Below are positions 19,857-57,306 of a stretch of DNA of 64,000 nucleotides, one piece after another. Source of the DNA: Candidatus Berkelbacteria bacterium RIFCSPLOWO2_01_FULL_50_28 (GTDB lineage: Bacteria > Patescibacteriota > UBA1384 > 2-12-FULL-50-11); NCBI GenBank assembly GCA_001774395.1, contig MEZX01000002.1, positions 160,753 through 224,752 of the forward strand, in the 5' to 3' direction. The position numbers were made by a program, and so were the translations under genes. The notes under the pieces are model-generated. The model made no database searches and was not told the origin of the DNA. It saw only the letters and a program-made list of their open reading frames with translations. Position 1 is the first letter of the stretch. Each line of letters begins with the position of its first letter.

Positions 19857-20369
19857 TTAGGCCGCCGAAACGTTTTCGAGGACGGCAACTTGGTCAAACG
19901 TTGGCGTATTAACGCTGTCTTTGAACACGACGTTCTCCGGAGTGATAGCGACGAGAAATTGTCGCGGTATCAGCCGTTCATTGAACAGTTTTCGGAGCGC
20001 AAAACGGACAATTATGCCGGAGCTTGAATCGAATATAACGTCACACACCCGGCCGAGCGGCGCGCCCGACTCGGTCCTGGCATTCACCCCTAGTACCGGA
20101 CCAGTGCGGTGTCCAATTTCTTCCAGCTCTTTTTGGGGCTCTTGGAGCGCTGTTTCGCCGTCAACAAACGCTGCGCGTCGGTCGAGCGAGAGGATGTCGG
20201 TATAAAGAAGATATTTTTTCTTGCGCGAGGCGATGGATGATCGTTTGCAAACACACGCCACTAAGCCAGCGTGGCGATTATCAAAAACGAGTCGTTGGAC
20301 GCTGCCAAGTAGCGTTCCTCGGCTACTGCGAACGTCTAACCCTAATACTGCGGTCGCCTCAATAACCAT
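19857..20369 (-). CDS. Putative PRC-barrel-domain protein (170 aa, two PRC-like halves)
   Basis: AVLGLDVRSSRGTLLGSVQRLVFDNRHAGLVA and GVNARTESGAPLGRVCDVIFDSSSGIIVRFAL resemble the PRC-barrel pattern. Confidence 0.45.
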   Translation of the reverse strand: MVIEATAVLGLDVRSSRGTLLGSVQRLVFDNRHAGLVACVCKRSSIASRKKKYLLYTDILSLDRRAAFVDGETALQEPQKELEEIGHRTGPVLGVNARTESGAPLGRVCDVIFDSSSGIIVRFALRKLFNERLIPRQFLVAITPENVVFKDSVNTPTFDQVAVLENVSAA

Positions 20370-20521
20370 GTACTTCTAGATTAGCAAAACTCTTGCCGCT
20401 ACTCTACAATAATTGTTAGGGAGGGAACACGTCTAAAGAGCGGCTTTACTTTCGTTATAAGGTTAAAGATGAACACGGCAAGACCCGCGCTGGTCGTGCG
20501 GCGGCGAGTAATGCCTCTCAA

Positions 20522-21634
20522 GTGCGGCGACTTCTGCAAGGGCGCGGCTACACAATAATTGGCATCGTTCAGGAAAAGGGCTTCTTCCAGAATCTGGCCC
20601 TTGGGAAAGTTTCCGCCAAAGATCGCTCTGTGATGTACAAGGAGCTGGCCACGATGCTAAAAGCCGGCGTCAGCATCACCCAGGCAATCGAGATCGTGGC
20701 CGAAACGCCGAACAAAAAATTACAGAAAGTGTTGCGAGAAGTATCGACCAGTTTGGAGAACGGCTTTCCGCTCTCAGTAGCGATGTCGGGGCATCCAAAA
20801 ATATTTCCTATCGTCGAAACAGGAGTGGTGCGAGCCGGTGAAGCAACCGGAAATTTAGTGAAGGTGCTCCAAGAGCTGGCCATCACTACCGAACGCTCGG
20901 CTAATTTTAGCGGCAAGGTGAAAGGCGCAATGATCTACCCGGCCTTTATTGTGGTGGTGATGATTGTGGTTGGAGCGATAATTCTGACCAAAGTTATCCC
21001 GCCGATCAAAGATATCTTCTCTACCCAGGGAGCGGAGCTACCGTTAAGTACGCGGATGCTTATCGCTATGGCAGAAGGGTTGATCAATTATTGGGGCTGG
21101 ATAATCTTGGCTGTCATTTTGTTCGTGGTCATAATCAAACTATTTCTCATTACCAAGCCGGGTAAACGAACCTCGAGCGTCTTGGCTCTGAACTTTCCGG
21201 TTTTTGGCACACTGATGCGCCAGGTTTACTTAGCGCAATTTAATCGGACGATGACGCTGCTGGTGGGTGCGGGCGTGCCAATTATTGAGGCGGTAGAAAT
21301 CGTGACGGACTCGACGACCAACGTCATCTTTCGTGACGCGCTAACTGGTTTAATGCACTCGTTGGAACAAGGCTCGCCAATTTCAGTCTCGCTACAAGGC
21401 AGTAAGTACTTCCCTAAGCTCATGACGCAGCTGCTATTTGTTGGTCAACAGTCGGGCGATTTAGGGGGGACGACCCAAACTCTGGCGGAGTATTTCGAAG
21501 GCGAGGTAGATGTAAAACTGCGAACGTTCTCGTCGCTTCTGGAGCCGTTTATTATTACTATTTTAGGGCTGGCGGTGGGGTTCATTATCGTCTCGGTGCT
21601 GCAACCGATTTACAATTTAAGCTCGGCAATCTAA
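20522..21634 (+). CDS. pilC: Type IV pilus / T2SS inner-membrane platform protein PilC (GspF family). The conserved N-terminus appears to extend upstream to about 20429 with no canonical start codon
   Basis: GspF-domain sequence (YKELATMLKAGVSITQAIEIV...). The in-frame upstream ...ERLYFRYKVKDEHGKTRAGRAAASNASQ matches PilC N-termini. It is preceded by TAG-GGAGGG-aac-ACG. Confidence 0.85.
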   Translation: MRRLLQGRGYTIIGIVQEKGFFQNLALGKVSAKDRSVMYKELATMLKAGVSITQAIEIVAETPNKKLQKVLREVSTSLENGFPLSVAMSGHPKIFPIVETGVVRAGEATGNLVKVLQELAITTERSANFSGKVKGAMIYPAFIVVVMIVVGAIILTKVIPPIKDIFSTQGAELPLSTRMLIAMAEGLINYWGWIILAVILFVVIIKLFLITKPGKRTSSVLALNFPVFGTLMRQVYLAQFNRTMTLLVGAGVPIIEAVEIVTDSTTNVIFRDALTGLMHSLEQGSPISVSLQGSKYFPKLMTQLLFVGQQSGDLGGTTQTLAEYFEGEVDVKLRTFSSLLEPFIITILGLAVGFIIVSVLQPIYNLSSAI

Positions 21635-21663
21635 GCTAAATGATGATGGGAGTACTACATTTG

Positions 21664-22554
21664 ATGGCAAAGCGACGGGGCTTTACACTCATTGAGATGC
21701 TGGTGGTTATTACCATCATTGGCATCCTTATTACCCTGATTGTTGGGGTGATCGGGCCGATACAGCGCAAGAGTCGCGATACCAAAAGAAAGTCGGAGAT
21801 CGCTCTGTTTCTGGGTGGCTTGAACGAATTCAAAGCCGATTTCAAGATTTACCCGAATTTCACCATGTACCTTGGCTCGTACGGCACTTCCGGTAACGGC
21901 GGCGAAAACTCTAACTTTGCTCTCTCCTCGACTATTCCGCAGTGCAACGGCTTGCCGGCTAACGCGGGGCAGACAGCCTCGTTTGCCGATTTGAGCTCGG
22001 TCTTTCCACCAACCACCACCCCAACAGCCGCCCAAATTGACGCTAATCCGGTTATCTTGAAAGAGGGGTCAGTTCTACCGGCTGGCTCGAGTTTCTCTTC
22101 GGTCAATCACTTCCTGGTGTGTTTGCGCTACTTAGACCGAGTTGTGGCTGATGTTAGTAAGACTGGCGCCTTGGGTTATCAGGTTAGATTCTCTTACGAT
22201 TTTTCAGACGTTTTGGTTAGTGCCGAAATGGAGAACGCCAGCGACCCGGACGCCAAGACGCTCTACAACGCCGCGGCGCCAAAACGCTATTACCAAGGTT
22301 CGGGGCTAAATATTCGTCAGCTAGACGAAGATAGCAATATCAGTAGCTTCTACTCCGGTTTATCGGGGACTATCAGCGACGGAATGTATCTGTATCAGTG
22401 CCTGAAAAAAGCCCTTCCAGCAGGAGAAGCGATAATAACCGATGACCGTTCTGGCTCCACTTACGATCCGATTATCTACTCTGGTAGCGCTTGGGCAAAA
22501 AATACTGCCTGTCAAGATGCTTCAGGAGGGCTGAATGTCGTCCGTGCGTACTAA
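21664..22554 (+). CDS. Prepilin-type (class III signal peptide) pilin/pseudopilin, about 296 aa
   Basis: MAKRRGFTLIEMLVVITIIGILITL (G|FTLIE prepilin peptidase site). Confidence 0.75.
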   Translation: MAKRRGFTLIEMLVVITIIGILITLIVGVIGPIQRKSRDTKRKSEIALFLGGLNEFKADFKIYPNFTMYLGSYGTSGNGGENSNFALSSTIPQCNGLPANAGQTASFADLSSVFPPTTTPTAAQIDANPVILKEGSVLPAGSSFSSVNHFLVCLRYLDRVVADVSKTGALGYQVRFSYDFSDVLVSAEMENASDPDAKTLYNAAAPKRYYQGSGLNIRQLDEDSNISSFYSGLSGTISDGMYLYQCLKKALPAGEAIITDDRSGSTYDPIIYSGSAWAKNTACQDASGGLNVVRAY

Positions 22555-23863: not shown

Positions 23864-24324
23864 TGAACACTAAACAACGCGGTTTTTCATTAATTGAGGT
23901 TCTTTTTGCCGTGTCGTTTTTGGTAATGGTGGGGGTAGCGATGGCAACGCTCAACGCTACCGCTAGTCGGTTGATTACTGGCACGGAAATCCGAGTGGAG
24001 GCCCAAGCGCTCAACGAACAGGCCCTAGCGTTCGTGGCGTTGCAAAGACGCACTATGGGCTCGGAATTTGCAACTAATTATTCTGGCTGTATCACTGGCA
24101 CAAAAGGGCCTAAAACTTGTTATGTATACTGTCCGCCAACACAGGTAGATGTCAGCTGCACCCTGACGCCGACCCGCAAGGCGACAACGCTTGGCATCAA
24201 CAAACTGCAATACGTTCCGTCTGTGCTCATTAAGACAACGGGTACAAAATATACTGTTATTGCTACTACCTCCTGGGGTAGCGGTATCAACCGTCAGATA
24301 ACGGCTAGCCAGCTGATCCAATGA
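23860..24324 (+). CDS. Prepilin-type minor pilin-like protein, 154 aa
   Basis: QRGFSLIEVLFAVSFLVMVGVAM; ATGA overlap with the upstream gene. Confidence 0.75.
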   Translation: MMNTKQRGFSLIEVLFAVSFLVMVGVAMATLNATASRLITGTEIRVEAQALNEQALAFVALQRRTMGSEFATNYSGCITGTKGPKTCYVYCPPTQVDVSCTLTPTRKATTLGINKLQYVPSVLIKTTGTKYTVIATTSWGSGINRQITASQLIQ

Positions 24325-25865
24325 GTCTTACAAGAAAAGGCAGTTTTACCCTCGTTGAGCTGATCGTTAGCGTCGCCTTGTTTATGGTTGCCATCACCGT
24401 GGCGCTTTACGCGACCGTTGGCACTCACGGTATCATTGCTCGCACGGAAGCTCGAGCGGTTGTGGCCGAGTCGAGTCGTTCGGTAAGCGACGCTATCCGG
24501 CGAATTACGGTTAACGCCCCAGTTGGGGGGATTGATTTGGTAGGCGGTCTGCAAAGCGGCGGCTATCCGGGTCTGCGCGCGCGGTCGTTTGCCAGCGGGG
24601 AATCGAGCAACATCTGTAGCATTATCGGCCGAGCCTTGGTTACCGTCGACAGTACGGGGAAAGAGCTTTTCGCCCTTGATCAAACGGGCTCAGCGATGGC
24701 GACTTGGATTTATGGCGTTGATGATGCCGGTCTCTGCCCAGCTCCTGGAACAAGCAGCCGTCTTCTCTTTCAAAATCGCCTGACCAACCGACAGACCAAG
24801 GTCACGAGCTTTTCGACGCAGCTACTCTCCATGAACTGTCAGAGCGGCTGTAGTACCAAGGAGCAGCTTCGTTATGTTCTGACTGTCGAAGAAAATACGG
24901 CCCTCGCTGGTCGGGCGTCGGAAACACGGCGGCCAAGCGTTCAGATTTCGGGTAGCGTCCCAATTGGATTAGTTGATGAGACTGTCGGCCTGCCGAACAT
25001 CGTGACGTCCGATCTGCCAGACGGTATCGTGGAAACAGCTTACAGCCAGACCTTAGTGGCGGGCGGCGGGACAACGCCGTACGCTTGGACACTGGTGTCT
25101 GGTGCACTGCCGAGCAATCTAACTCTCTCAAGCATCGGCGTAATCAGTGGCACGCCGCAAGCCGGCACGCAGGGTACTTACAATATCACCGTTCGGGTCA
25201 CTGACGATAACAGCAAAACCGATGATCAGTCCCTGATACTCCAAGTTAGCCCGGTTAACGGCGGTCCGCAACTGACCATTATAACTAACTCGCCGCTTAC
25301 TAATGGGACAGTAGGAACAGCTTACTCGGCCACGCTTCAAGGGGCTAATGGTAGCCAGCCGTATTCGTGGAGTAACCCGGGCGGCGGTTTACCAACTGGT
25401 CTAAGCCTAGCCTCTTCAACAGGCGTAATTAGCGGTACGCCAACGGTGGCTAACAACTACAGCTTCGTTATCCGCCTAACCGATAGCCAGCCGAGCTTTG
25501 TCGAGAAGACATTTAACATTCTGATTAGTGCGGGTAACCAACCGTTAACCATTACCACCACCTCCCCGCTGCCCAACGCCACGGCAACTTGTGCGTATTC
25601 ACAGCAGCTCTCAGCTACTGGAGGAACTCCGGGTTACAGCTGGGCTTTCGACGGTGTTTTGCCAATTCAACTTTCCTGGCTATCTATCAGTGCGGGAGGC
25701 CTACTAACTGGAACACCAACGATGGCAGGCGGGCCGTACACCTTTAGTGTACAAGTAACAGATTCGGGTACTCCAGTACCTGGTACCCAAACCAAGAGCT
25801 TCAACCTAACAATCGACCCGCTGTTGATGTCCTGTGGGGGCACTGGGGAAGAAGAGTTAGGATGA
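24321..25865 (+). CDS. Prepilin-type pseudopilin carrying four tandem putative-Ig (He_PIG/dystroglycan-type) repeats, 514 aa
   Basis: N-terminal KGSFTLVELIVSVALFMVAITV, then 4 units of about 95 aa (...PY.W.....LP.GL.L.S.TGVISGTP.......F.V.VTD...). Confidence 0.75.
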   Translation: MSLTRKGSFTLVELIVSVALFMVAITVALYATVGTHGIIARTEARAVVAESSRSVSDAIRRITVNAPVGGIDLVGGLQSGGYPGLRARSFASGESSNICSIIGRALVTVDSTGKELFALDQTGSAMATWIYGVDDAGLCPAPGTSSRLLFQNRLTNRQTKVTSFSTQLLSMNCQSGCSTKEQLRYVLTVEENTALAGRASETRRPSVQISGSVPIGLVDETVGLPNIVTSDLPDGIVETAYSQTLVAGGGTTPYAWTLVSGALPSNLTLSSIGVISGTPQAGTQGTYNITVRVTDDNSKTDDQSLILQVSPVNGGPQLTIITNSPLTNGTVGTAYSATLQGANGSQPYSWSNPGGGLPTGLSLASSTGVISGTPTVANNYSFVIRLTDSQPSFVEKTFNILISAGNQPLTITTTSPLPNATATCAYSQQLSATGGTPGYSWAFDGVLPIQLSWLSISAGGLLTGTPTMAGGPYTFSVQVTDSGTPVPGTQTKSFNLTIDPLLMSCGGTGEEELG

Positions 25866-28800
25866 CGACAAAAGGTAGCTCCGGCTCGGTGCTACTGCTC
25901 ACAGTGATGGTCCTGGCGGTTTTGACCACGACGACTTTCGGGGCGATCGCCGTGCGTTTTGATCAGCTTGCCGCAACGGATAAATTAACCAACTCAGCGG
26001 TTGCTAAACTGGCCGCTGACTCGGGTCTAGCCCAGCTGCGTGATAAGTTGATCAACAATCAGCCGGTCAGCCAGGCCTACTCTTACAACATCGAAACAGC
26101 CCAAGAGAATCAGATAGCCACAACCGCCGGCTATCGACCGAACCCCAGATCGTCGTACGCCACCTACGAACCAGCCAAAACTTCGCTGCCGCGCTGTATC
26201 GCCGCCGCCGTGCTGGATCCTTGGGTAAACAGCGGCAAGTATCTGTCGAAAGACGTTGCCAGCCCAACGCTAATTTTCTACTACGCCAACATCGTTAACG
26301 ACACGCCGTTGGGTATACTGCCAGCCAACGCGAACCTTTCAGTGAACGACAAGAAGATTCCGATCTCCGACGTCACCAGTATGGGTCACTTTTACAATCC
26401 GTTCGCGCCGTTGAACGCTACCCAAGATTCGCCCAGCTACTGGACGATCAAACTCGGTGGGCCGGACGACCAGTTCTTGACCCAGAAGGCCTCAAACAAC
26501 GTCGACTCGCTTTTCCGCGGCCTTGACGTCCTCTATAGCTATTATCTGCCCAGGCTGACTGACTCGGGTATCGCCGCGGGCGGCTCCCAGACGGGGTTAG
26601 ATCGAATTGATAGTGCTGATCTTACCGGTTTATTTGAAGACACGATTCGCAATAATAACTTCAAAGTTTGGCTTGACGCCTCAATTTCCGATACTTATCT
26701 CTACCAGTACGGATTAGGCGATCTGTTTGTTGCGAATTCGCAGTACCGCATAAAGTGGATGCAGCCCTCGCTCTGGAACGACTTGCCAGAAGCGGATGTG
26801 GCTGTGCCTTATAAATCAGACGATCTGGGCGCCTCGACGGTCTCGTGGACAAAGAAAGGCTTGCCGCTCCTGACGCCAGGAGCAGACATCGGCGGTTGGG
26901 GGGTATCTATCTTACGCGGCGCTTCTTCGTTTTCGTTTGTGCGCTTGAGCAGTGCCAGTAACGGCGTTGCTTTTAGCCCCGGTCAGACCATCGACGGGTT
27001 TGTTTACGGCGGCCTTGACGGTCTGCGGCTCAATTCACGCCTCAGCCTGCAGCTATTTACCAAAGTTGGCGGTCACGTCTCTTTGAAAAGTCGCGCTCAG
27101 GACCAAGGGAAACTTTACGGGGCTACCGTTACTCAGATTGGATCGGTCACTGCGCAAAATATCGCCATTAAGTTAAAACTAAGCAGCAACGACTACGAGA
27201 CGCCGACGCTCTCCTATTCCAGTGCTTACCCGACCGGCTCAATGATCGGCACAATCGCCTTGCTTGCCGCGCCGCAGTTCTCGACTAACAAGTCTCTCTC
27301 CTCGGCGACAGTCAAGGCCGATGGGGACGGCATAAATGCCAACATTACGGTGCAGAGTAACGGTAACTGCGTTGCTGTCGCGGGCAGCTTTACCGCCTGT
27401 CCGGCGGTGGGGGATCTTATCGGCCTGTCAAAATCTGGCCAAGATCCGCTTTGGGGGATGGTTGAGACGGTTAGTTTTACTGGTACAAACCTCGGTAGTT
27501 TTACGATAGACAAATTGCGACGGGGGCCAAAACCTACCCGCCATCAAGCAGTGACGTACTATACAGCCAACTCTAACCCGCGTATCGCCTACTTCGGCGG
27601 CGCGATCGATATGAACGATTACGACGGCGGTTACGCTTCAGAGAGTGCGGAACTGTGGATTTACGACCCAGAAGGCGACAGTTGGAGCTATCCGAATAAC
27701 CCTGGTGGCACGCCACCGGGACCGCGCGCCGGCGCTTCGATGGTCTACGATAACGTCAACGGTCGCTTGGTGGTTGTTGGTGGCTACTATCACGAGGCAG
27801 TGACTCCCGATGCCAACCCGGCCTTTGACTGTGAGATTAGCCAGCAGTCGTGCTTGTACACTAACCGGCCTCATTTTCGTATCGCCAAACGAATAGTTAA
27901 CGACGTCTATGCCTACAATATCGCCGGTAATTCCTGGGAGAAGATGAACTACACCTTTACCGGCGCGGCCCAAAAGATTGAGAACGGTGTCACCTACACC
28001 GCTCGAGTGGTCTCAACGCTGGCCAATCGAAGCGGGTTAGAAGGCTGGCGCCAGACGACGCTGATGGAGAACGCCTCGCCGCAGACTATCAACATTAACG
28101 GCGCGGCGACTAATATTGTTGTTAAGCCGTCCGCGGCCGGGCTGGCAATCGGGGACGAGCTGTATCTTTCCGGAAAGCTCACCGTTAGCGCCGCCTCATT
28201 CACTGCCTGGGGGAGGATAACCGGCATCAATTACGCCGCCAACAGTATCACCGTTACCGTGCGCGGCTATAAAAAAGCTGCTCCCACCGATCCAAACACA
28301 GTGACACTGAGTGATCTTTCGATGCAGGTCTTAAGTCGTCTCGGAAACGGCAACGGTCAAACTTGTACAGGAGTTGTTACTACCTCTTACTCTTGCAATT
28401 TCAGTAATATCACTGGTTTTGCCGTTGGCGACCAAGTGGTTCTGGAGAGATATGTTGGATCAGAAAATTTAACAGATGTTTTAAGCGGTTTTATCAGCTA
28501 CACCTCGGGTACGTCAGCCTATTTTGTGGCCGACGAACGCGACAGCGCCATCTTAGATTTCGCCGATCAGTCTCTGGGTCGCCCTAGCGGCGGCACGGCC
28601 GTCGCCTTCCCTGTTGGGCGTTACGGGGCAACGCTTGGGCAGGATCCAACTGCTGGCGACACAGATAAAGCGCTGTTGTATCAAGGGGCGTCGAAGAATT
28701 TTGCTGCTAATTTGCGTTTTAACGATGTCTGGCAGGCCAAATTCAACGCTGGCACTGGCACCGGCAGTATTGCCTGGACGCTGTTCAATTTGCAGAATCC

Positions 28801-30964
28801 CCAAGGGCCGAATACCGATTCTGGATACTATATTCAGAATATCCGTTCGTCGTACTTTGCTAATGTCTTCACAAGCTCCGTTGCGGCCGAGAACCCGGGG
28901 ATGGTCAAAGACTTGGATTACACCGATCCGCGGACTGAACAGCACTATGTAGCGTGGGATGAGACTAAAAACTGGACTTTGAAACTCGACACGACGGGGC
29001 AGGAGAGTCTATCCAGCGGCCAACTTGTGCCAGGCGCCCAGATTATTATTGAGCGCCAGAGCTTGGTTGCTGACGGAGCTCAGCCGCGCGGTCGTGAAGT
29101 TTTCCACGGTTACATCGTCAGTAACTTTGGCGGCTCTTATGACAGCACCAAGATAGTGGTGCGCCACAACCCGTCTTACGCCGACGACAAAGGTCTGCTC
29201 GGAGATTCAGCCGCTTCTAAAATCTCTATCTATTCCTATCTGCCAACGACCGCCCCGATCCGTAAACAGAGCGATTCGAACTGGCTAACCGCCGCGTGGG
29301 ACGGGACAACGAAGAGTTTCACTGTTAGCTCAAGCGACATCAACCTTAACGAAATCCCACCAGTTGGAGCTCTGATTCAATCCTGGAAAAACCCCAACAG
29401 CAGTGCCACGATCGATGCGACGCTCTTTGTGGTGAAGGGCCGTACTTACAGCTACAACCTCGGGGCGCATCAGTTCCGATTCGATGTGGATACCATCAAG
29501 CTCTCCACGCCTCTCCCAATTGCCTTCGGTAGCAACCAGGTGGTCGGAGATGCTAATAGTGCCCGGGTTATGTCGCTTGGTGATCAAAATATGCCTTGGG
29601 ACAGCTGGGCTGCACCGGACTGGGCGACAGACGCTTCTGCCAATAATCGCTGGGTTATCCGTCGTTCTGCCACGGGAAACCCGGGTTACGCGCCAGGTCC
29701 GCGCCAAGCAGCCGCTCTAGGGTCGTATTTCGATGGCACAAATTCGCAACTCTATATGGCTGGGGCTAGCTTCGGTCCGACGTCGACAGTTTGGAAAAAA
29801 TCCAACGCTGGCAAGACTACTTATACTAGCGACACTGCCTGGTCGTTTCTCAAGACATCGCCGAACAACGACAACGGTTTACCCAGTTTGTGGGGCTCCT
29901 CGATGATTGTTTACCGGTTCAATAGCCAAACAAAAGCGGTTTATTTCAACGGTAAGTTGAAGTACGACAACGGCCGTAACGATTACGGTCGCACCGTTGG
30001 GGCTCGTATCTTGGGGCGGCCGGACTTGAATCGCTGGGGAACCGAATCCAACGGCGGTTACCAGAACAGTGACAATACTTTTTATCTGGACGACACTAGC
30101 TCAACGCTTGATTCGGCCGGGTTTGTTAGTAGTATTTACAACAACTTCCCCACAACCGCTCCAACATCGGTCAAAGATAGTTTTCGCCTCAAGGGATACG
30201 GAATTACGCCAACATCGCAAGGCGGTTGGAGCACCGGCAAAGCGGTCTGCCCGTACTTGGGTCAGAAATGCGACGGCGGTAACGATTACAGCCCGCTTTT
30301 GGGCAGCCTGGGAACGCTCGGCCGCAGCTCCAGTAACAGCAGCGCCTACGGCGGCTACGGTTGGGGCTCGAGTCGAGCGGTTCTGAACCCTGGTTCGGCA
30401 TTCTTGAGCCAAGGTGGCAACGCGAGCGCGATTCTCTCCGGGCCAACATTCTCTGGCAACATCACCAACGGTCGTTGGGAGCAGGACGGTTACGCACCGT
30501 ATCTCTGTGACTCGCAAGTCGGCTGCGGCAATTACTATCAATCGAACTACGGCTCGCTGGCAACTAATTTCCAGAGCGATAAGACGATAATGTTTGCTGG
30601 TTACACTAAACTGATCGGCGGCGGTAAGGGCGGAGCGATTCTGGTCACGCCAGCCGGCGTCGGCACAGGGTTTCTAACCAAATCCGGCATACTTGGTGGC
30701 GCGAGTGATCGTTGGTACTCGTACTGCGCCGCCAGCGACACTACTGTTGATGGCAGCGATAACTACACCTGTAACACCAAAGCAACGCGCTATTTGCCCT
30801 GGTTGCCGGACATCGAAGATATGCTTTTCCTGATGAACGCCGCGGTAAAGTTGGCCTCGGCCGACAGCTACAAAGTCACCGGTTACTACGGCAACGCCCG
30901 TCGGGCCTATATTGTCACTTCCGTTACCGGCGAAGATGCGAAGGTTCAGGAAATAACGCCGTAA
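25862..30964 (+). CDS. Giant pilus-associated protein (1700 aa) with a PilX-like N-terminal TM segment; Gly/Thr/Asn-rich, beta-rich. A putative tip adhesin by analogy to PilY1
   Basis: MTTKGSSGSVLLLTVMVLAVLTTTTFGAIAV; 4-nt overlap with the preceding pseudopilin; no catalytic motifs seen. Confidence 0.8.
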   Translation: MTTKGSSGSVLLLTVMVLAVLTTTTFGAIAVRFDQLAATDKLTNSAVAKLAADSGLAQLRDKLINNQPVSQAYSYNIETAQENQIATTAGYRPNPRSSYATYEPAKTSLPRCIAAAVLDPWVNSGKYLSKDVASPTLIFYYANIVNDTPLGILPANANLSVNDKKIPISDVTSMGHFYNPFAPLNATQDSPSYWTIKLGGPDDQFLTQKASNNVDSLFRGLDVLYSYYLPRLTDSGIAAGGSQTGLDRIDSADLTGLFEDTIRNNNFKVWLDASISDTYLYQYGLGDLFVANSQYRIKWMQPSLWNDLPEADVAVPYKSDDLGASTVSWTKKGLPLLTPGADIGGWGVSILRGASSFSFVRLSSASNGVAFSPGQTIDGFVYGGLDGLRLNSRLSLQLFTKVGGHVSLKSRAQDQGKLYGATVTQIGSVTAQNIAIKLKLSSNDYETPTLSYSSAYPTGSMIGTIALLAAPQFSTNKSLSSATVKADGDGINANITVQSNGNCVAVAGSFTACPAVGDLIGLSKSGQDPLWGMVETVSFTGTNLGSFTIDKLRRGPKPTRHQAVTYYTANSNPRIAYFGGAIDMNDYDGGYASESAELWIYDPEGDSWSYPNNPGGTPPGPRAGASMVYDNVNGRLVVVGGYYHEAVTPDANPAFDCEISQQSCLYTNRPHFRIAKRIVNDVYAYNIAGNSWEKMNYTFTGAAQKIENGVTYTARVVSTLANRSGLEGWRQTTLMENASPQTININGAATNIVVKPSAAGLAIGDELYLSGKLTVSAASFTAWGRITGINYAANSITVTVRGYKKAAPTDPNTVTLSDLSMQVLSRLGNGNGQTCTGVVTTSYSCNFSNITGFAVGDQVVLERYVGSENLTDVLSGFISYTSGTSAYFVADERDSAILDFADQSLGRPSGGTAVAFPVGRYGATLGQDPTAGDTDKALLYQGASKNFAANLRFNDVWQAKFNAGTGTGSIAWTLFNLQNPQGPNTDSGYYIQNIRSSYFANVFTSSVAAENPGMVKDLDYTDPRTEQHYVAWDETKNWTLKLDTTGQESLSSGQLVPGAQIIIERQSLVADGAQPRGREVFHGYIVSNFGGSYDSTKIVVRHNPSYADDKGLLGDSAASKISIYSYLPTTAPIRKQSDSNWLTAAWDGTTKSFTVSSSDINLNEIPPVGALIQSWKNPNSSATIDATLFVVKGRTYSYNLGAHQFRFDVDTIKLSTPLPIAFGSNQVVGDANSARVMSLGDQNMPWDSWAAPDWATDASANNRWVIRRSATGNPGYAPGPRQAAALGSYFDGTNSQLYMAGASFGPTSTVWKKSNAGKTTYTSDTAWSFLKTSPNNDNGLPSLWGSSMIVYRFNSQTKAVYFNGKLKYDNGRNDYGRTVGARILGRPDLNRWGTESNGGYQNSDNTFYLDDTSSTLDSAGFVSSIYNNFPTTAPTSVKDSFRLKGYGITPTSQGGWSTGKAVCPYLGQKCDGGNDYSPLLGSLGTLGRSSSNSSAYGGYGWGSSRAVLNPGSAFLSQGGNASAILSGPTFSGNITNGRWEQDGYAPYLCDSQVGCGNYYQSNYGSLATNFQSDKTIMFAGYTKLIGGGKGGAILVTPAGVGTGFLTKSGILGGASDRWYSYCAASDTTVDGSDNYTCNTKATRYLPWLPDIEDMLFLMNAAVKLASADSYKVTGYYGNARRAYIVTSVTGEDAKVQEITP

Positions 30965-33233: not shown

Positions 33234-33369
33234 GGGGGCGAACGGGTTCGACAGAGACCCAAGTGCGTGGTTAGGGCGTGGTAGCCCAACTCGGAAAAAC
33301 GGCTCAAGAAAGACCGAGCATCACGTAGCAAGTCTTTGGAACTGGGTTCGATTCCCAGCGCCTCCACCA
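33234..33369 (+). ncRNA. ssrA: Miniature tmRNA (ssrA)-like RNA: canonical tmRNA 5' and 3' tRNA-like halves only about 136 nt apart; no identifiable tag reading frame or pseudoknots
   Basis: 5' GGGGGCGAACGGGUUCGACAGAGACCCAAGUGCG resembles B. subtilis GGGGACGUUACGGAUUCGACAGGGAU. 3' GGAACUGGGUUCGAUUCCCAGCGCCUCCACCA resembles GGACGUGGGUUCGACUCCCACCGUCUCCACCA. A G3-U70 pair is present and CCA is encoded. Confidence 0.5.
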
Positions 33370-39953: not shown

Positions 39954-39971
39954 AGAGGATTTAAGGGGAGG

Positions 39972-40562
39972 ATGAGCGTAACAAGATTAGCTAATTTTAT
40001 TTCGATTGCTGCCAACCCGGTCCTGCTACTGCTAGGGGCGGTAATGGTGGTTATTAACCATTACGTTGACTCAACCGCCACCTTTTGGCATCACAGCGGT
40101 TACGCGGCACTCCTTTTGGTAGCCCCGGGCGGCTTGTACACAATTTATCTCTGGCGAAAGGTTGGCGAAATTGATCTAGATATCTCGAATCGTGAAGATC
40201 GGATTGTACCGATGATGCTAACAATTCTGGGCGCCGTAGTTGGTACAGCGCTACTGGCGCGCAGCCAAACTACGAGCGCAACGCTGGAAACGATGAGTTA
40301 TGTCTTAGTTGCCCTGCTGATTACCCTTACCACCATTACTCTGGTGTGGAAGATTAGCATTCATACTGCCACCCTGTCGGCCCTTGCCACCTTAATGGCC
40401 TATTTTGGTGGGTTGAATTACACCTATTTCTTTATTCTTCTTATTCCAGTTGCTTGGGCACGAACGGTGTTGCACCAACACACAAAAGCCCAGCTTCTGG
40501 GTGGGGCAATCTGGGGGGCTCTCGTCACCTGGATACTGGCCTGGTTTTTCTCCGGCCGCTAG
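39972..40562 (+). CDS. Integral membrane protein (196 aa, about 5 TM helices)
   Basis: Hydrophobic throughout. Confidence 0.5.
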   Translation: MSVTRLANFISIAANPVLLLLGAVMVVINHYVDSTATFWHHSGYAALLLVAPGGLYTIYLWRKVGEIDLDISNREDRIVPMMLTILGAVVGTALLARSQTTSATLETMSYVLVALLITLTTITLVWKISIHTATLSALATLMAYFGGLNYTYFFILLIPVAWARTVLHQHTKAQLLGGAIWGALVTWILAWFFSGR

Positions 40563-56808: not shown

Positions 56809-56878
56809 CAATGAGAAAAAACGAAGAGCGGAGGGGCGAGGATTACCCGTAGGGGTATTCCAAGTCCCGGAGCAATGA
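56794..56878. repeat. Direct duplication of the tRNA-Gln 3' end: A-TCCAAGTCCCGGAGCAATGA at 56794-56814 and again at 56858-56878 (att-site-like scar)
   Basis: 21-22 nt repeated, with a 43-nt spacer; the second copy contains the ATG of the NUDIX gene. Confidence 0.6.
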
Positions 56879-57306
56879 CAAGTACAGATAAAGATACGTA
56901 TTTCGTGGCGGTGAAGCTTTTTTTGCGACAGGGTGATCAGCTGCTCATCACTCACGATATCTTCGGTTCTTGGGATCTGCCGGGCGGGCGACTAAAACCT
57001 GACGAATTTCACAAGCCACTTTCGGATGTTGTGAAGCGTAAAATGGACGAGGAGCTTGGCTCGGATGTCAGTTACGTAGTCGGTGAGCCTCTGGTCTTCT
57101 TTAGGGTTGAGCGGCAAGAACGGGGACGGGCGGTCAGGATATTTGCGATTGGTTACGAAGCTACCTACGAAGGCGGTAAGATTTCCTTGGGCAAGCATCA
57201 CGATCAGATGAAATGGGTTGATGTTGAAATCTTTAAGCCCGAAGATTACTTCAAGGGTGGCTGGTTGCTCGGTGTTCAGGAGTACCTGGAGAAAGTTCGA
57301 GCCTAA
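56875..57306 (+). CDS. NUDIX hydrolase (143 aa)
   Basis: GGRLKPDEFHKPLSDVVKRKMDEELG fits the Nudix box GX5EX7REUXEEXGU loosely. Confidence 0.7.
   Translation: MTSTDKDTYFVAVKLFLRQGDQLLITHDIFGSWDLPGGRLKPDEFHKPLSDVVKRKMDEELGSDVSYVVGEPLVFFRVERQERGRAVRIFAIGYEATYEGGKISLGKHHDQMKWVDVEIFKPEDYFKGGWLLGVQEYLEKVRA

What the first reader, a model, noticed from the sequence alone, without database searches (positions are those of the whole stretch)
20417..20524. pilC appears to lack a canonical start codon: the conserved N-terminus is encoded in frame upstream of the first GTG, behind TAG-GGGAGGG-aac-ACG
The 102 nt between the in-frame stop (20417-19) and the GTG at 20522 translate to GGNTSKERLYFRYKVKDEHGKTRAGRAAASNASQ. 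That continues ...VRRLLQGRGYTIIGI, the typical PilC/GspF N-terminal segment (F.Y.a.d..G....G...A.....L...G). No ATG, GTG or TTG occurs in this stretch. A strong SD (GGGAGGG) sits 3-4 nt before ACG (20429-31). If that codon were ATG the protein would start MSKERLYFRYK.... This could be a start-codon point mutation giving an inactive or phase-off pilus platform, ACG initiation, or a sequencing error
Basis: seen in the sequence. Interest (0 to 1): 0.55.

Follow-up and report, generated by a model that had tools for sequence, protein, structure and literature searches.

The report
Conserved ACG start codon on pilC
The pilus platform gene pilC of this Berkelbacteria genome, and of several diverged relatives, has ACG where the start codon should be, so it most likely initiates there at a low rate; a conserved natural ACG start is very unusual in bacteria, and gene callers truncate these genes.

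Summary
TAG (20417-19), GGGAGGG (20419-25), AAC, ACG (20429-31), then 30 conserved PilC codons with no ATG/GTG/TTG before GTG 20522.

It is not a sequencing error. Five independent assemblies of this Candidatus Berkelbacteria population all carry ACG.

It is not a fresh inactivating mutation. Six other diverged lineages (63-72% protein identity, synonymous sites saturated) have ACG at the homologous codon, 4-5 nt after GGAGG and just after an in-frame stop. Other relatives carry CTG (3), ATC (1), TTG (4) or GTG (2) there, or an ATG one codon earlier (6).

The N-terminal codons are under the same purifying selection as the rest of the gene. In an AlphaFold model they form two β-strands and a helix of the N-terminal domain. 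A GTG start would delete both strands.

A σ70-like promoter, TTAGCA-N18-TACAAT, is conserved 6-9 nt upstream of the SD. No other gene in the window or in 122 kb of related loci shows this pattern.

Best reading: ACG is the real, selected, weak start codon of pilC. It probably throttles PilC relative to the pilins downstream. Initiation itself is inferred, not shown. Public annotation (370 or 326 aa) is truncated.

The parts
20381..20386 (+). -35-like hexamer TTAGCA of the putative pilC promoter
   Evidence: Promoter scan. TAGCAAAA is conserved in most relatives in alignment A2. Function is inferred.
20405..20410 (+). -10-like hexamer TACAAT, within the conserved TGCTCTACA[A/C]T motif
   Evidence: It lies 6-9 nt upstream of GGAGG in the relatives, which implies an mRNA that begins at or just before the SD. 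The transcription start is inferred, not measured.
20417..20419 (+). In-frame stop TAG that bounds the reading frame upstream; also part of the extended SD UAGGGAGGG
   Evidence: Relatives have TAA/TAG/TGA at or near the same place.
20419..20425 (+). Shine-Dalgarno GGGAGGG; the GGAGG core (20420-24) lies 4 nt before ACG
   Evidence: other genes in the window have GGAGG 4 nt (three genes), 5, 6 (four genes), 7 or 9 nt before ATG. GGAGGG is almost invariant in A2. The region is unstructured.
20429..20431 (+). ACG, the proposed initiation codon of pilC
   Evidence: It is the only one-base neighbour of ATG between the stop and the conserved FRYK motif. ACG is conserved at the homologous codon in L030, L032, L114, L122, L112 and L036. 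It is identical in 5 independent assemblies.
20429..21634 (+). Full pilC coding sequence (401 codons plus stop)
   Evidence: Relatives are 399-404 aa.
20432..20521 (+). N-terminal segment missed by annotation (residues 2-31): β1, β2 and the start of α1 of the N-terminal domain
   Evidence: pN 0.13-0.37 against pS 0.63-0.95, the same as the rest of the gene. The AlphaFold model gives strands 6-13 and 19-26 and helix 29-38. Relatives carry Pfam T2SSF_N.
20522..20524 (+). GTG used as the start in public annotation; an internal Val32 codon
   Evidence: 370-aa OGD61128.1/OGD64586.1. It is not conserved as a start: in L032 the next canonical start is 75 codons after ACG, and in L114 66 codons.
21640..22554 (+). 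First pilin gene, 5 nt after the pilC stop (probable true start 21664, MAKRRG|FTLIE); further pilin-like genes follow to 30964
   Evidence: The order pilC then pilins is conserved in relatives.
19857..20369 (-). Divergent PRC-barrel gene; conserved upstream neighbour that leaves a 59-nt intergenic region

Best explanation
ACG at 20429-31 is the genuine, evolutionarily maintained initiation codon of pilC. The gene sits first in a pilC-pilin operon behind a conserved σ70-type promoter. Its -10 box lies only about 9 nt from the SD, so the mRNA probably begins at or just before a strong, unpaired SD (UAGGGAGGG). The 30S subunit docks on that SD and places ACG, 4 nt downstream, in the P site. Initiator fMet-tRNA then pairs with a mismatch at the middle base, as measured for ACG in E. 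coli, where it gives roughly 0.1-1% of AUG and an N-terminal Met. The result is a full-length 401-aa PilC made at a low rate. This would suit a low-copy platform protein encoded on the same transcript as abundant pilins. Across the clade this codon behaves like a dial: ACG, CUG, AUC, UUG or GUG at normal spacing, or AUG at a cramped 1-2 nt spacing. Shown here: the sequence anatomy, conservation of ACG, purifying selection on the N-terminus, reproducibility across assemblies, and restriction to this gene. Inferred: the transcription start, initiation at ACG with Met, and the stoichiometry rationale.
For: Anatomy is confirmed. The spacing is normal for this genome.

ACG sits at the homologous codon in six other lineages, while the preceding codon varies (AAC, CCG, ATC, ACT, AAG, GAC, ATA). 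These occupy at least four separate tree positions (L122 was fetched later and is not in that tree).

ACG makes up only 26% of Thr codons in these genes, and synonymous sites are saturated. Drift at an ordinary Thr codon therefore would not keep ACG. Where an ATG lies one codon upstream, the codon does drift (ACG, ACA, AAG).

In all 17 lineages without that ATG, the codon at GGAGG+4/5 is one base from ATG.

The N-terminal 33 codons show pN 0.13-0.37 against pS 0.63-0.95, like the rest of the gene. In the model they form β1, β2 and α1 at pLDDT about 80. They are homologous to M. xanthus PilC residues 16 onward.

Five independent assemblies are identical at this site. The 5' region is unstructured. 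Promoter and SD are conserved.

No other ORF of at least 150 codons in the window or in 122 kb of related loci shows the pattern.

In E. coli, ACG-initiated sfGFP carries an N-terminal Met, and ACG falls in the 0.1-1% of AUG class (bioRxiv 10.1101/063800).
Against: There is no transcript, ribosome-profiling or proteomic evidence, so initiation at ACG is inferred from comparative genomics alone. In E. coli ACG is a very poor start, and IF3 discriminates against it (established knowledge). A functional PilC level therefore requires either a very low demand or a more permissive initiation apparatus in this lineage. The promoter and transcription start are consensus matches only. The 'throttle relative to pilins' rationale is untested. 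My sample of relatives was enriched for truncated gene calls, so the frequency of ACG is overstated: the untargeted sets give 5 of 20 loci without a canonical start, two of which are the same sequence (L007 and L038). Consensus assemblies cannot exclude a minor T allele in the population.
Confidence: 0.78

Rival explanations
1. Translation starts at the first canonical codon (GTG 20522, as annotated) and gives an N-terminally truncated but functional PilC. On this reading the upstream 102 nt is a 5' leader.
For: GTG 20522 is the first table-11 start recognised by gene callers.
Against: The upstream codons evolve as protein (pN much lower than pS). They form two β-strands and a helix of the N-terminal domain and align to PilC of M. 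xanthus. The GTG is not conserved: the next canonical start is 75 codons downstream in L032 and 66 in L114. No SD precedes GTG 20522.
Confidence: 0.05
2. The start codon was lost by mutation (ATG to ACG), so pilC is silent: a pseudogene, or a phase-off state that reverts by C-to-T mutation.
For: ACG is one transition from ATG. Pilus genes are phase-variable in some bacteria (established knowledge).
Against: ACG is kept in seven lineages separated by saturated synonymous divergence, with intact 399-403-codon ORFs and purifying selection throughout. No ATG allele appears in five assemblies of this population. No repeat tract that would drive phase switching was noted in the start region (no repeat search was run). 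The promoter and SD remain conserved.
Confidence: 0.05
3. The genomic ACG is converted to AUG in the mRNA by C-to-U editing, as at plant organelle start codons. Initiation would then be canonical at the RNA level.
For: Conserved genomic ACG at a start position is exactly the signature of edited starts in plastids and mitochondria (for example PMC12548569, listed). It would explain how a poor codon supports a necessary protein.
Against: To my knowledge no site-specific C-to-U mRNA editing system is known in bacteria. Sister lineages use CTG, ATC and TTG at the same codon, and C-to-U editing would not turn these into AUG. That fits direct near-cognate initiation better. No transcript data are available.
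Confidence: 0.03
4. Sequencing or assembly error at 20430 (true base T).
For: It would be a single-base difference from ATG.
Against: The sequence is identical in the NCBI assembly and in four other assemblies from different runs and samples (L117-L121). The truncated call P0122 sits on 13 contigs. The same ACG is present in six other species-level lineages.
Confidence: 0.01
5. Berkelbacteria-type ribosomes or IF3 discriminate start codons less strictly. ACG, CUG and AUC would then be reasonably efficient starts, not throttles, and their use on pilC would be near-neutral drift among acceptable codons.
For: The codon at this position turns over freely among ACG, CTG, ATC, TTG and GTG across the clade. 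Candidate Phyla Radiation (CPR) bacteria have unusual ribosome composition (established knowledge).
Against: If such codons were generally acceptable they should appear on other genes. None was found among ORFs of at least 150 codons in the 64-kb window or in 122 kb of related loci. Within the ACG lineages the codon is retained despite saturated synonymous change.
Confidence: 0.08

Closest known systems
AUU start codons of E. coli infC and pcnB
   Same: A conserved near-cognate start codon behind an SD gives deliberately low translation. These are the only confirmed non-canonical starts in E. coli (10.1101/063800).
   Different: Here the codon is ACG, with the mismatch at the middle base, and it is not among the start codons of translation table 11. 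The gene is pilC. There is no evidence for IF3-linked autoregulation. The codon varies among ACG, CUG, AUC, UUG and GUG across the clade.
ACG initiation in eukaryotic viruses (AAV VP2, Sendai C')
   Same: ACG is used as a weak start to set a low ratio of one protein relative to others from the same transcript (AAV literature listed).
   Different: Those cases use cap-dependent scanning and leaky initiation, with no SD. This is a bacterial SD-directed site on a probably very short leader.
ACG start codons of plant organelle genes restored to AUG by C-to-U editing
   Same: A genomic ACG is conserved at the start of an otherwise intact, selected gene (papers listed).
   Different: Those cases require organellar editing factors. 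No such system is known in bacteria, and sister lineages here use CTG, ATC or TTG, which editing cannot convert to AUG.
PilC/GspF inner-membrane platform proteins (M. xanthus PilC 3JC8, T. thermophilus PilC 2WHN)
   Same: Full-length homology (E 4e-55 to 3JC8), two T2SSF repeats, an N-terminal β-β-α-β domain, and pilin genes adjacent.
   Different: Nothing unusual in the protein. The unusual feature is its start codon and its position as the first gene, directly behind a promoter. No pilB/pilT was found among the ORFs of at least 150 aa that were scanned against Pfam.

Membership tests
PilC/GspF (T2SSF) platform protein | Two T2SSF (PF00482) repeats | tested here: met
   E 1.1e-52, 2 stretches.
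PilC/GspF (T2SSF) platform protein | End-to-end homology to a characterised PilC, including the N-terminal segment | tested here: met
   residues 5-401 align to residues 16-416 of M. xanthus PilC (3JC8), E 3.8e-55.
PilC/GspF (T2SSF) platform protein | N-terminal T2SSF_N domain | tested here: inconclusive
   Relatives carry PF28597 in precomputed hits. The local Pfam scan reported only T2SSF for the window protein. The AlphaFold model shows a β-β-α-β unit at residues 6-48, pLDDT about 80.
PilC/GspF (T2SSF) platform protein | Genomic association with prepilin genes and an assembly ATPase | tested here: inconclusive
   Pilin genes with the N_methyl motif follow directly. No PilB/PilT-type ATPase was found among the window ORFs scanned. 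The rest of the genome could not be searched.
Gene with a conserved non-canonical (near-cognate) start codon | No ATG/GTG/TTG between the upstream in-frame stop and the conserved N-terminus | tested here: met
   for the window. The same holds in 10 other lineages.
Gene with a conserved non-canonical (near-cognate) start codon | Near-cognate codon at functional SD spacing | tested here: met
   GGAGG+4 in the window and +4/5 in relatives. ATG-initiated genes in the window use spacings of 4-9 nt.
Gene with a conserved non-canonical (near-cognate) start codon | The codon is conserved among orthologues beyond what synonymous drift allows | tested here: met
   Seven of seven ACG against 26% ACG among Thr codons, with pS 0.63-0.95. 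The codon drifts where an ATG lies upstream.
Gene with a conserved non-canonical (near-cognate) start codon | Experimentally determined N-terminus or initiation site | not testable with these tools
   No proteomic, Ribo-seq or reporter data are available.
Pseudogene or phase-off allele | Relaxed selection, disrupted frame, or ON/OFF polymorphism in the population | tested here: not met
   Intact ORFs and pN much lower than pS. There is no ATG allele in 5 assemblies.
RNA-edited ACG start (organelle type) | U at the site in the transcript, and an editing factor | not testable with these tools
   No transcript data. CTG, ATC and TTG at the same codon in sister lineages argue against it.

The most novel reading that the evidence does not exclude
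This Berkelbacteria-related clade of Candidate Phyla Radiation (CPR) bacteria has an initiation apparatus (IF3, the 16S P-site or the initiator tRNA) that accepts ACG, CUG and AUC as bona fide start codons at useful efficiency. Evolution would then use the start codon itself as a graded expression dial on pilC. ACG would in that case deserve a place among bacterial start codons. A less likely alternative is that the ACG is edited to AUG in the mRNA, which to my knowledge would be the first site-specific C-to-U start-codon editing in a bacterium.
Probability: 0.15. Interest if true: 0.8.

Novelty: new variant of a known kind. Interest (0 to 1): 0.62.

Why it matters
Bacterial start codons are taken to be AUG, GUG and UUG, with a handful of AUU/CUG exceptions. 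ACG is not in translation table 11, and the literature searches here found no natural bacterial ACG start.

This is a case where comparative genomics alone makes a strong argument for a conserved ACG start. It also shows a clade in which one gene's start codon moves among ACG, CUG, AUC, UUG, GUG and a cramped AUG. That gives a natural series for studying how start-codon strength sets the stoichiometry of a molecular machine.

It also has a practical side. About a quarter of pilC genes in this clade are annotated as truncated (326-379 aa) or given false N-terminal extensions, because gene callers cannot see the start. That could make pilus systems of CPR bacteria look defective.

Tried and rejected
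1. RNA element: an Rfam scan of 20200-20700 at E<=1 found nothing. Folding of 20417-20500 is less stable than shuffles (z=+1.3). There is therefore no riboswitch-like or SD-sequestering structure.

2. Upstream ORF coupling: a TTG at 20413 opens a 7-codon out-of-frame ORF ending at TAA 20434-36. It lies upstream of the probable transcription start and has no counterpart in L030 or L032, so I rejected it.

3. Start one codon upstream: that codon is AAC, CCG, ATC, ACT, AAG, GAC or ATA in the ACG lineages and sits only 1-2 nt from GGAGG. I rejected it for the window.

4. Genome-wide use of near-cognate starts: none was found besides pilC among ORFs of at least 150 codons in the window or in 122 kb of related loci. 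One weak candidate is an ATT at 56842.

5. A special initiator tRNA: only tRNA-Gln, tRNA-Glu and tRNA-Ile lie in the window. The rest of the genome could not be reached.

6. Literature: six searches for natural bacterial ACG starts, Patescibacteria start codons and pilC start codons found no precedent. A seventh retrieved the E. coli 64-codon measurement used here.

7. dN/dS ratios could not be computed for most pairs because synonymous sites are saturated. I report pN and pS instead.

Full report
**Observation.** The coordinates are exact. TAG lies at 20417-19, GGGAGGG at 20419-25, AAC at 20426-28 and ACG at 20429-31. Thirty further codons follow (SKERLYFRYKVKDEHGKTRAGRAAASNASQ) before the first ATG/GTG/TTG, the GTG at 20522. 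The frame closes at 21632-34. No CTG, ATT, ATC or ATA occurs in frame in the stretch. The product is a PilC/GspF platform protein: Pfam T2SSF at 1e-52 with two repeats, and residues 5-401 align to residues 16-416 of Myxococcus xanthus PilC.

**Origin of the window.** The window comes from Candidatus Berkelbacteria, NCBI GCA_001776125.1, contig MEZU01000012.1. Public annotation starts the gene at the GTG (370 aa; OGD61128.1 and OGD64586.1) or at a later Met (326 aa).

**Not an error.** The 4.1 kb around the gene, ACG included, is identical in the NCBI assembly and in the Logan assembly of SRR3989342. Over the pilC gene and 130 nt upstream, the Logan assembly of SRR2090153 is identical, an ENA assembly differs by one base far downstream, and a second ENA assembly differs by six bases far downstream. 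The truncated gene call sits on 13 contigs.

**Relatives.** The protein search returned about 58 clusters at 57-73% identity.
- About a quarter were called short (326-379 aa) or with odd N-terminal extensions.
- I fetched DNA for 22 other distinct lineages and read the start regions.
- All share one layout: a -35-like TAGCAA, a -10-like TGCTCTACA[A/C]T, then 6-9 nt, GGAGGG, one variable codon, and the start position.
- At that position the codon is ACG in the window, L030 (=L109), L032 (=L110, L111), L114, L122, L112 and L036.
- It is CTG in L007 (=L038), L113 and L116, and ATC in L123.
- It is TTG in L002 (=L010), L115, L008 and L009, and GTG in L003 and L029.
- Six lineages (L001, L004, L005, L006, L034, L035) instead have ATG one codon earlier, only 1-2 nt after GGAGG.
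- In those six the second codon is ACG, ACA or AAG.
- So 11 of 23 lineages have no canonical start.
- This set is enriched by my targeted look-ups. In the two untargeted scans the figure is 5 of 20 loci, two of which are the same sequence.
- Among 57 distant PilC loci (45% identity or less) only two lack a canonical start, and among three loci at 45-55% identity none does.

**Why ACG is the start.**
1. The frame is closed by a stop one to five codons upstream in six of the seven ACG lineages. In the seventh (L122) the only upstream in-frame start lies inside the promoter spacer. Initiation must therefore occur in a very short interval.
2. ACG is the only element shared in that interval. The preceding codon differs in all seven lineages (AAC, CCG, ATC, ACT, AAG, GAC, ATA).
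3. ACG lies 4-5 nt after GGAGG. ATG-initiated genes in this window have GGAGG at 4 nt (three genes), 5, 6 (four genes), 7 or 9 nt.
4. The ACG lineages occupy at least four separate positions in a neighbour-joining tree (L122 was fetched later and is not in that tree).
5. Synonymous sites between these lineages are saturated (pS 0.63-0.95), and ACG is only 26% of Thr codons in these genes. An ordinary Thr codon would not have stayed ACG. Where an upstream ATG relieves the constraint, the codon does drift.
6. In all 17 lineages without the upstream ATG, the codon at this position is a one-base neighbour of ATG.

**The N-terminus is translated.**
- Over the 33 codons after ACG, pN is 0.13-0.37 against pS 0.63-0.95. 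This matches the rest of the gene (pN about 0.2, pS about 0.8).
- An AlphaFold2 model built on 55 sequences (mean pLDDT 83.9) gives β1 at residues 6-13, β2 at 19-26, α1 at 29-38 and β3 at 42-48.
- The annotated GTG is residue 32, so a GTG start would remove both strands.
- In L032 the next canonical start is 75 codons after ACG, and in L114 66 codons.

**Specific to this gene.** Among ORFs of at least 150 codons, pilC is the only one in the 64-kb window with a strong SD, a near-cognate codon and a long stretch before the first canonical start. The same scan over 122 kb of related loci returns only pilC. The 5' region has no Rfam match. It folds less stably than shuffled controls (z=+1.3), so the SD and start are probably accessible.

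**Mechanism (inferred).** The conserved TTAGCA-N18-TACAAT ends about 9 nt before GGAGG. The transcript therefore probably begins at about 20417, with the SD at its 5' end and a leader of about 12 nt. The 30S subunit would dock on the SD, and fMet-tRNA would pair with ACG despite a middle-base mismatch.

In E. coli, ACG-initiated sfGFP carried an N-terminal Met. [quoted passage not shown] It names infC and pcnB (both AUU) as the only confirmed non-canonical starts in E. coli.

pilC is followed 5 nt later by pilin genes, and this gene order holds in the relatives. A weak start would let a strongly transcribed operon yield little platform protein and much pilin. The lineages with ATG have it at a cramped 1-2 nt spacing, which is also expected to weaken initiation (established knowledge on SD spacing). 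This fits selection for low output, but it is untested.

**Rivals.**
- A GTG start is contradicted by the selection and structure evidence.
- A silent or phase-off allele is contradicted by conservation and by the absence of polymorphism.
- C-to-U editing cannot be excluded without transcripts, but it does not explain the CTG, ATC and TTG sister states.
- Generally relaxed start selection in this lineage remains possible, but no second gene supports it.

**Comparison with known cases and novelty.**
- The protein is an ordinary PilC.
- The start codon is the unusual part. Functionally it is closest to the AUU starts of infC and pcnB, and to ACG-initiated minor products in eukaryotic viruses.
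- Six literature searches found no natural, conserved bacterial ACG start and nothing on Patescibacteria or pilC start codons.
- I rate it a new variant of a known kind, with moderate to high interest. The comparative evidence is strong, but initiation at ACG has not been observed directly.

Noticed in passing
L016 and L027 (about 15 codons upstream of the tblastn match start): Two distant PilC genes from 'Bacillota bacterium' MAGs also lack a canonical start before the conserved N-terminus. Both read ...GAT ATT GCC AGG TAC AGG TAT after an SD, which suggests an ATT start for pilC in an unrelated lineage.
   Followed up: no
window 33234-33369 (+): An Rfam tmRNA hit (65 bits, above the gathering score) spans only 136 nt yet aligns to the whole 374-position model. 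ARAGORN called no tmRNA in the window. It may be a strongly reduced or incompletely detected tmRNA gene.
   Followed up: no
window 56815-57306 (+), codon 56842: The ORF directly after tRNA-Gln has its first canonical start 20 codons in, but has GGAGGGG followed 7 nt later by an in-frame ATT. It is a weak candidate for another non-canonical start, or simply not a gene.
   Followed up: no
window 39963-39974 (+): The PAP2-family gene 39972-40562 has its ATG directly abutting GGAGG (spacing 0). This resembles the cramped GGAGGG-ATG arrangement on pilC in some relatives.
   Followed up: no
window 21640-21666 (+): The first pilin gene opens with three consecutive ATGs (21640, 21643, 21646). The prepilin leader MAKRRG|FTLIE points to a start at 21664. 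Public calls disagree (302 against 296 aa).
   Followed up: partly
L122 966-1000; P0005, P0007, P0016, P0021, P0029 N-termini: Some relatives are annotated with false N-terminal extensions. The gene caller picked a GTG or ATG inside the promoter region and read through the SD as 'GG' (for example L122, whose GTG lies between the -35 and -10 boxes).
   Followed up: partly
window 24321-30964 (+): Downstream of the pilins lie a 514-aa pilin-like protein with He_PIG Ig-like domains and a 1700-aa ORF. No pilB/pilT ATPase or prepilin peptidase was found among the ORFs scanned.
   Followed up: partly
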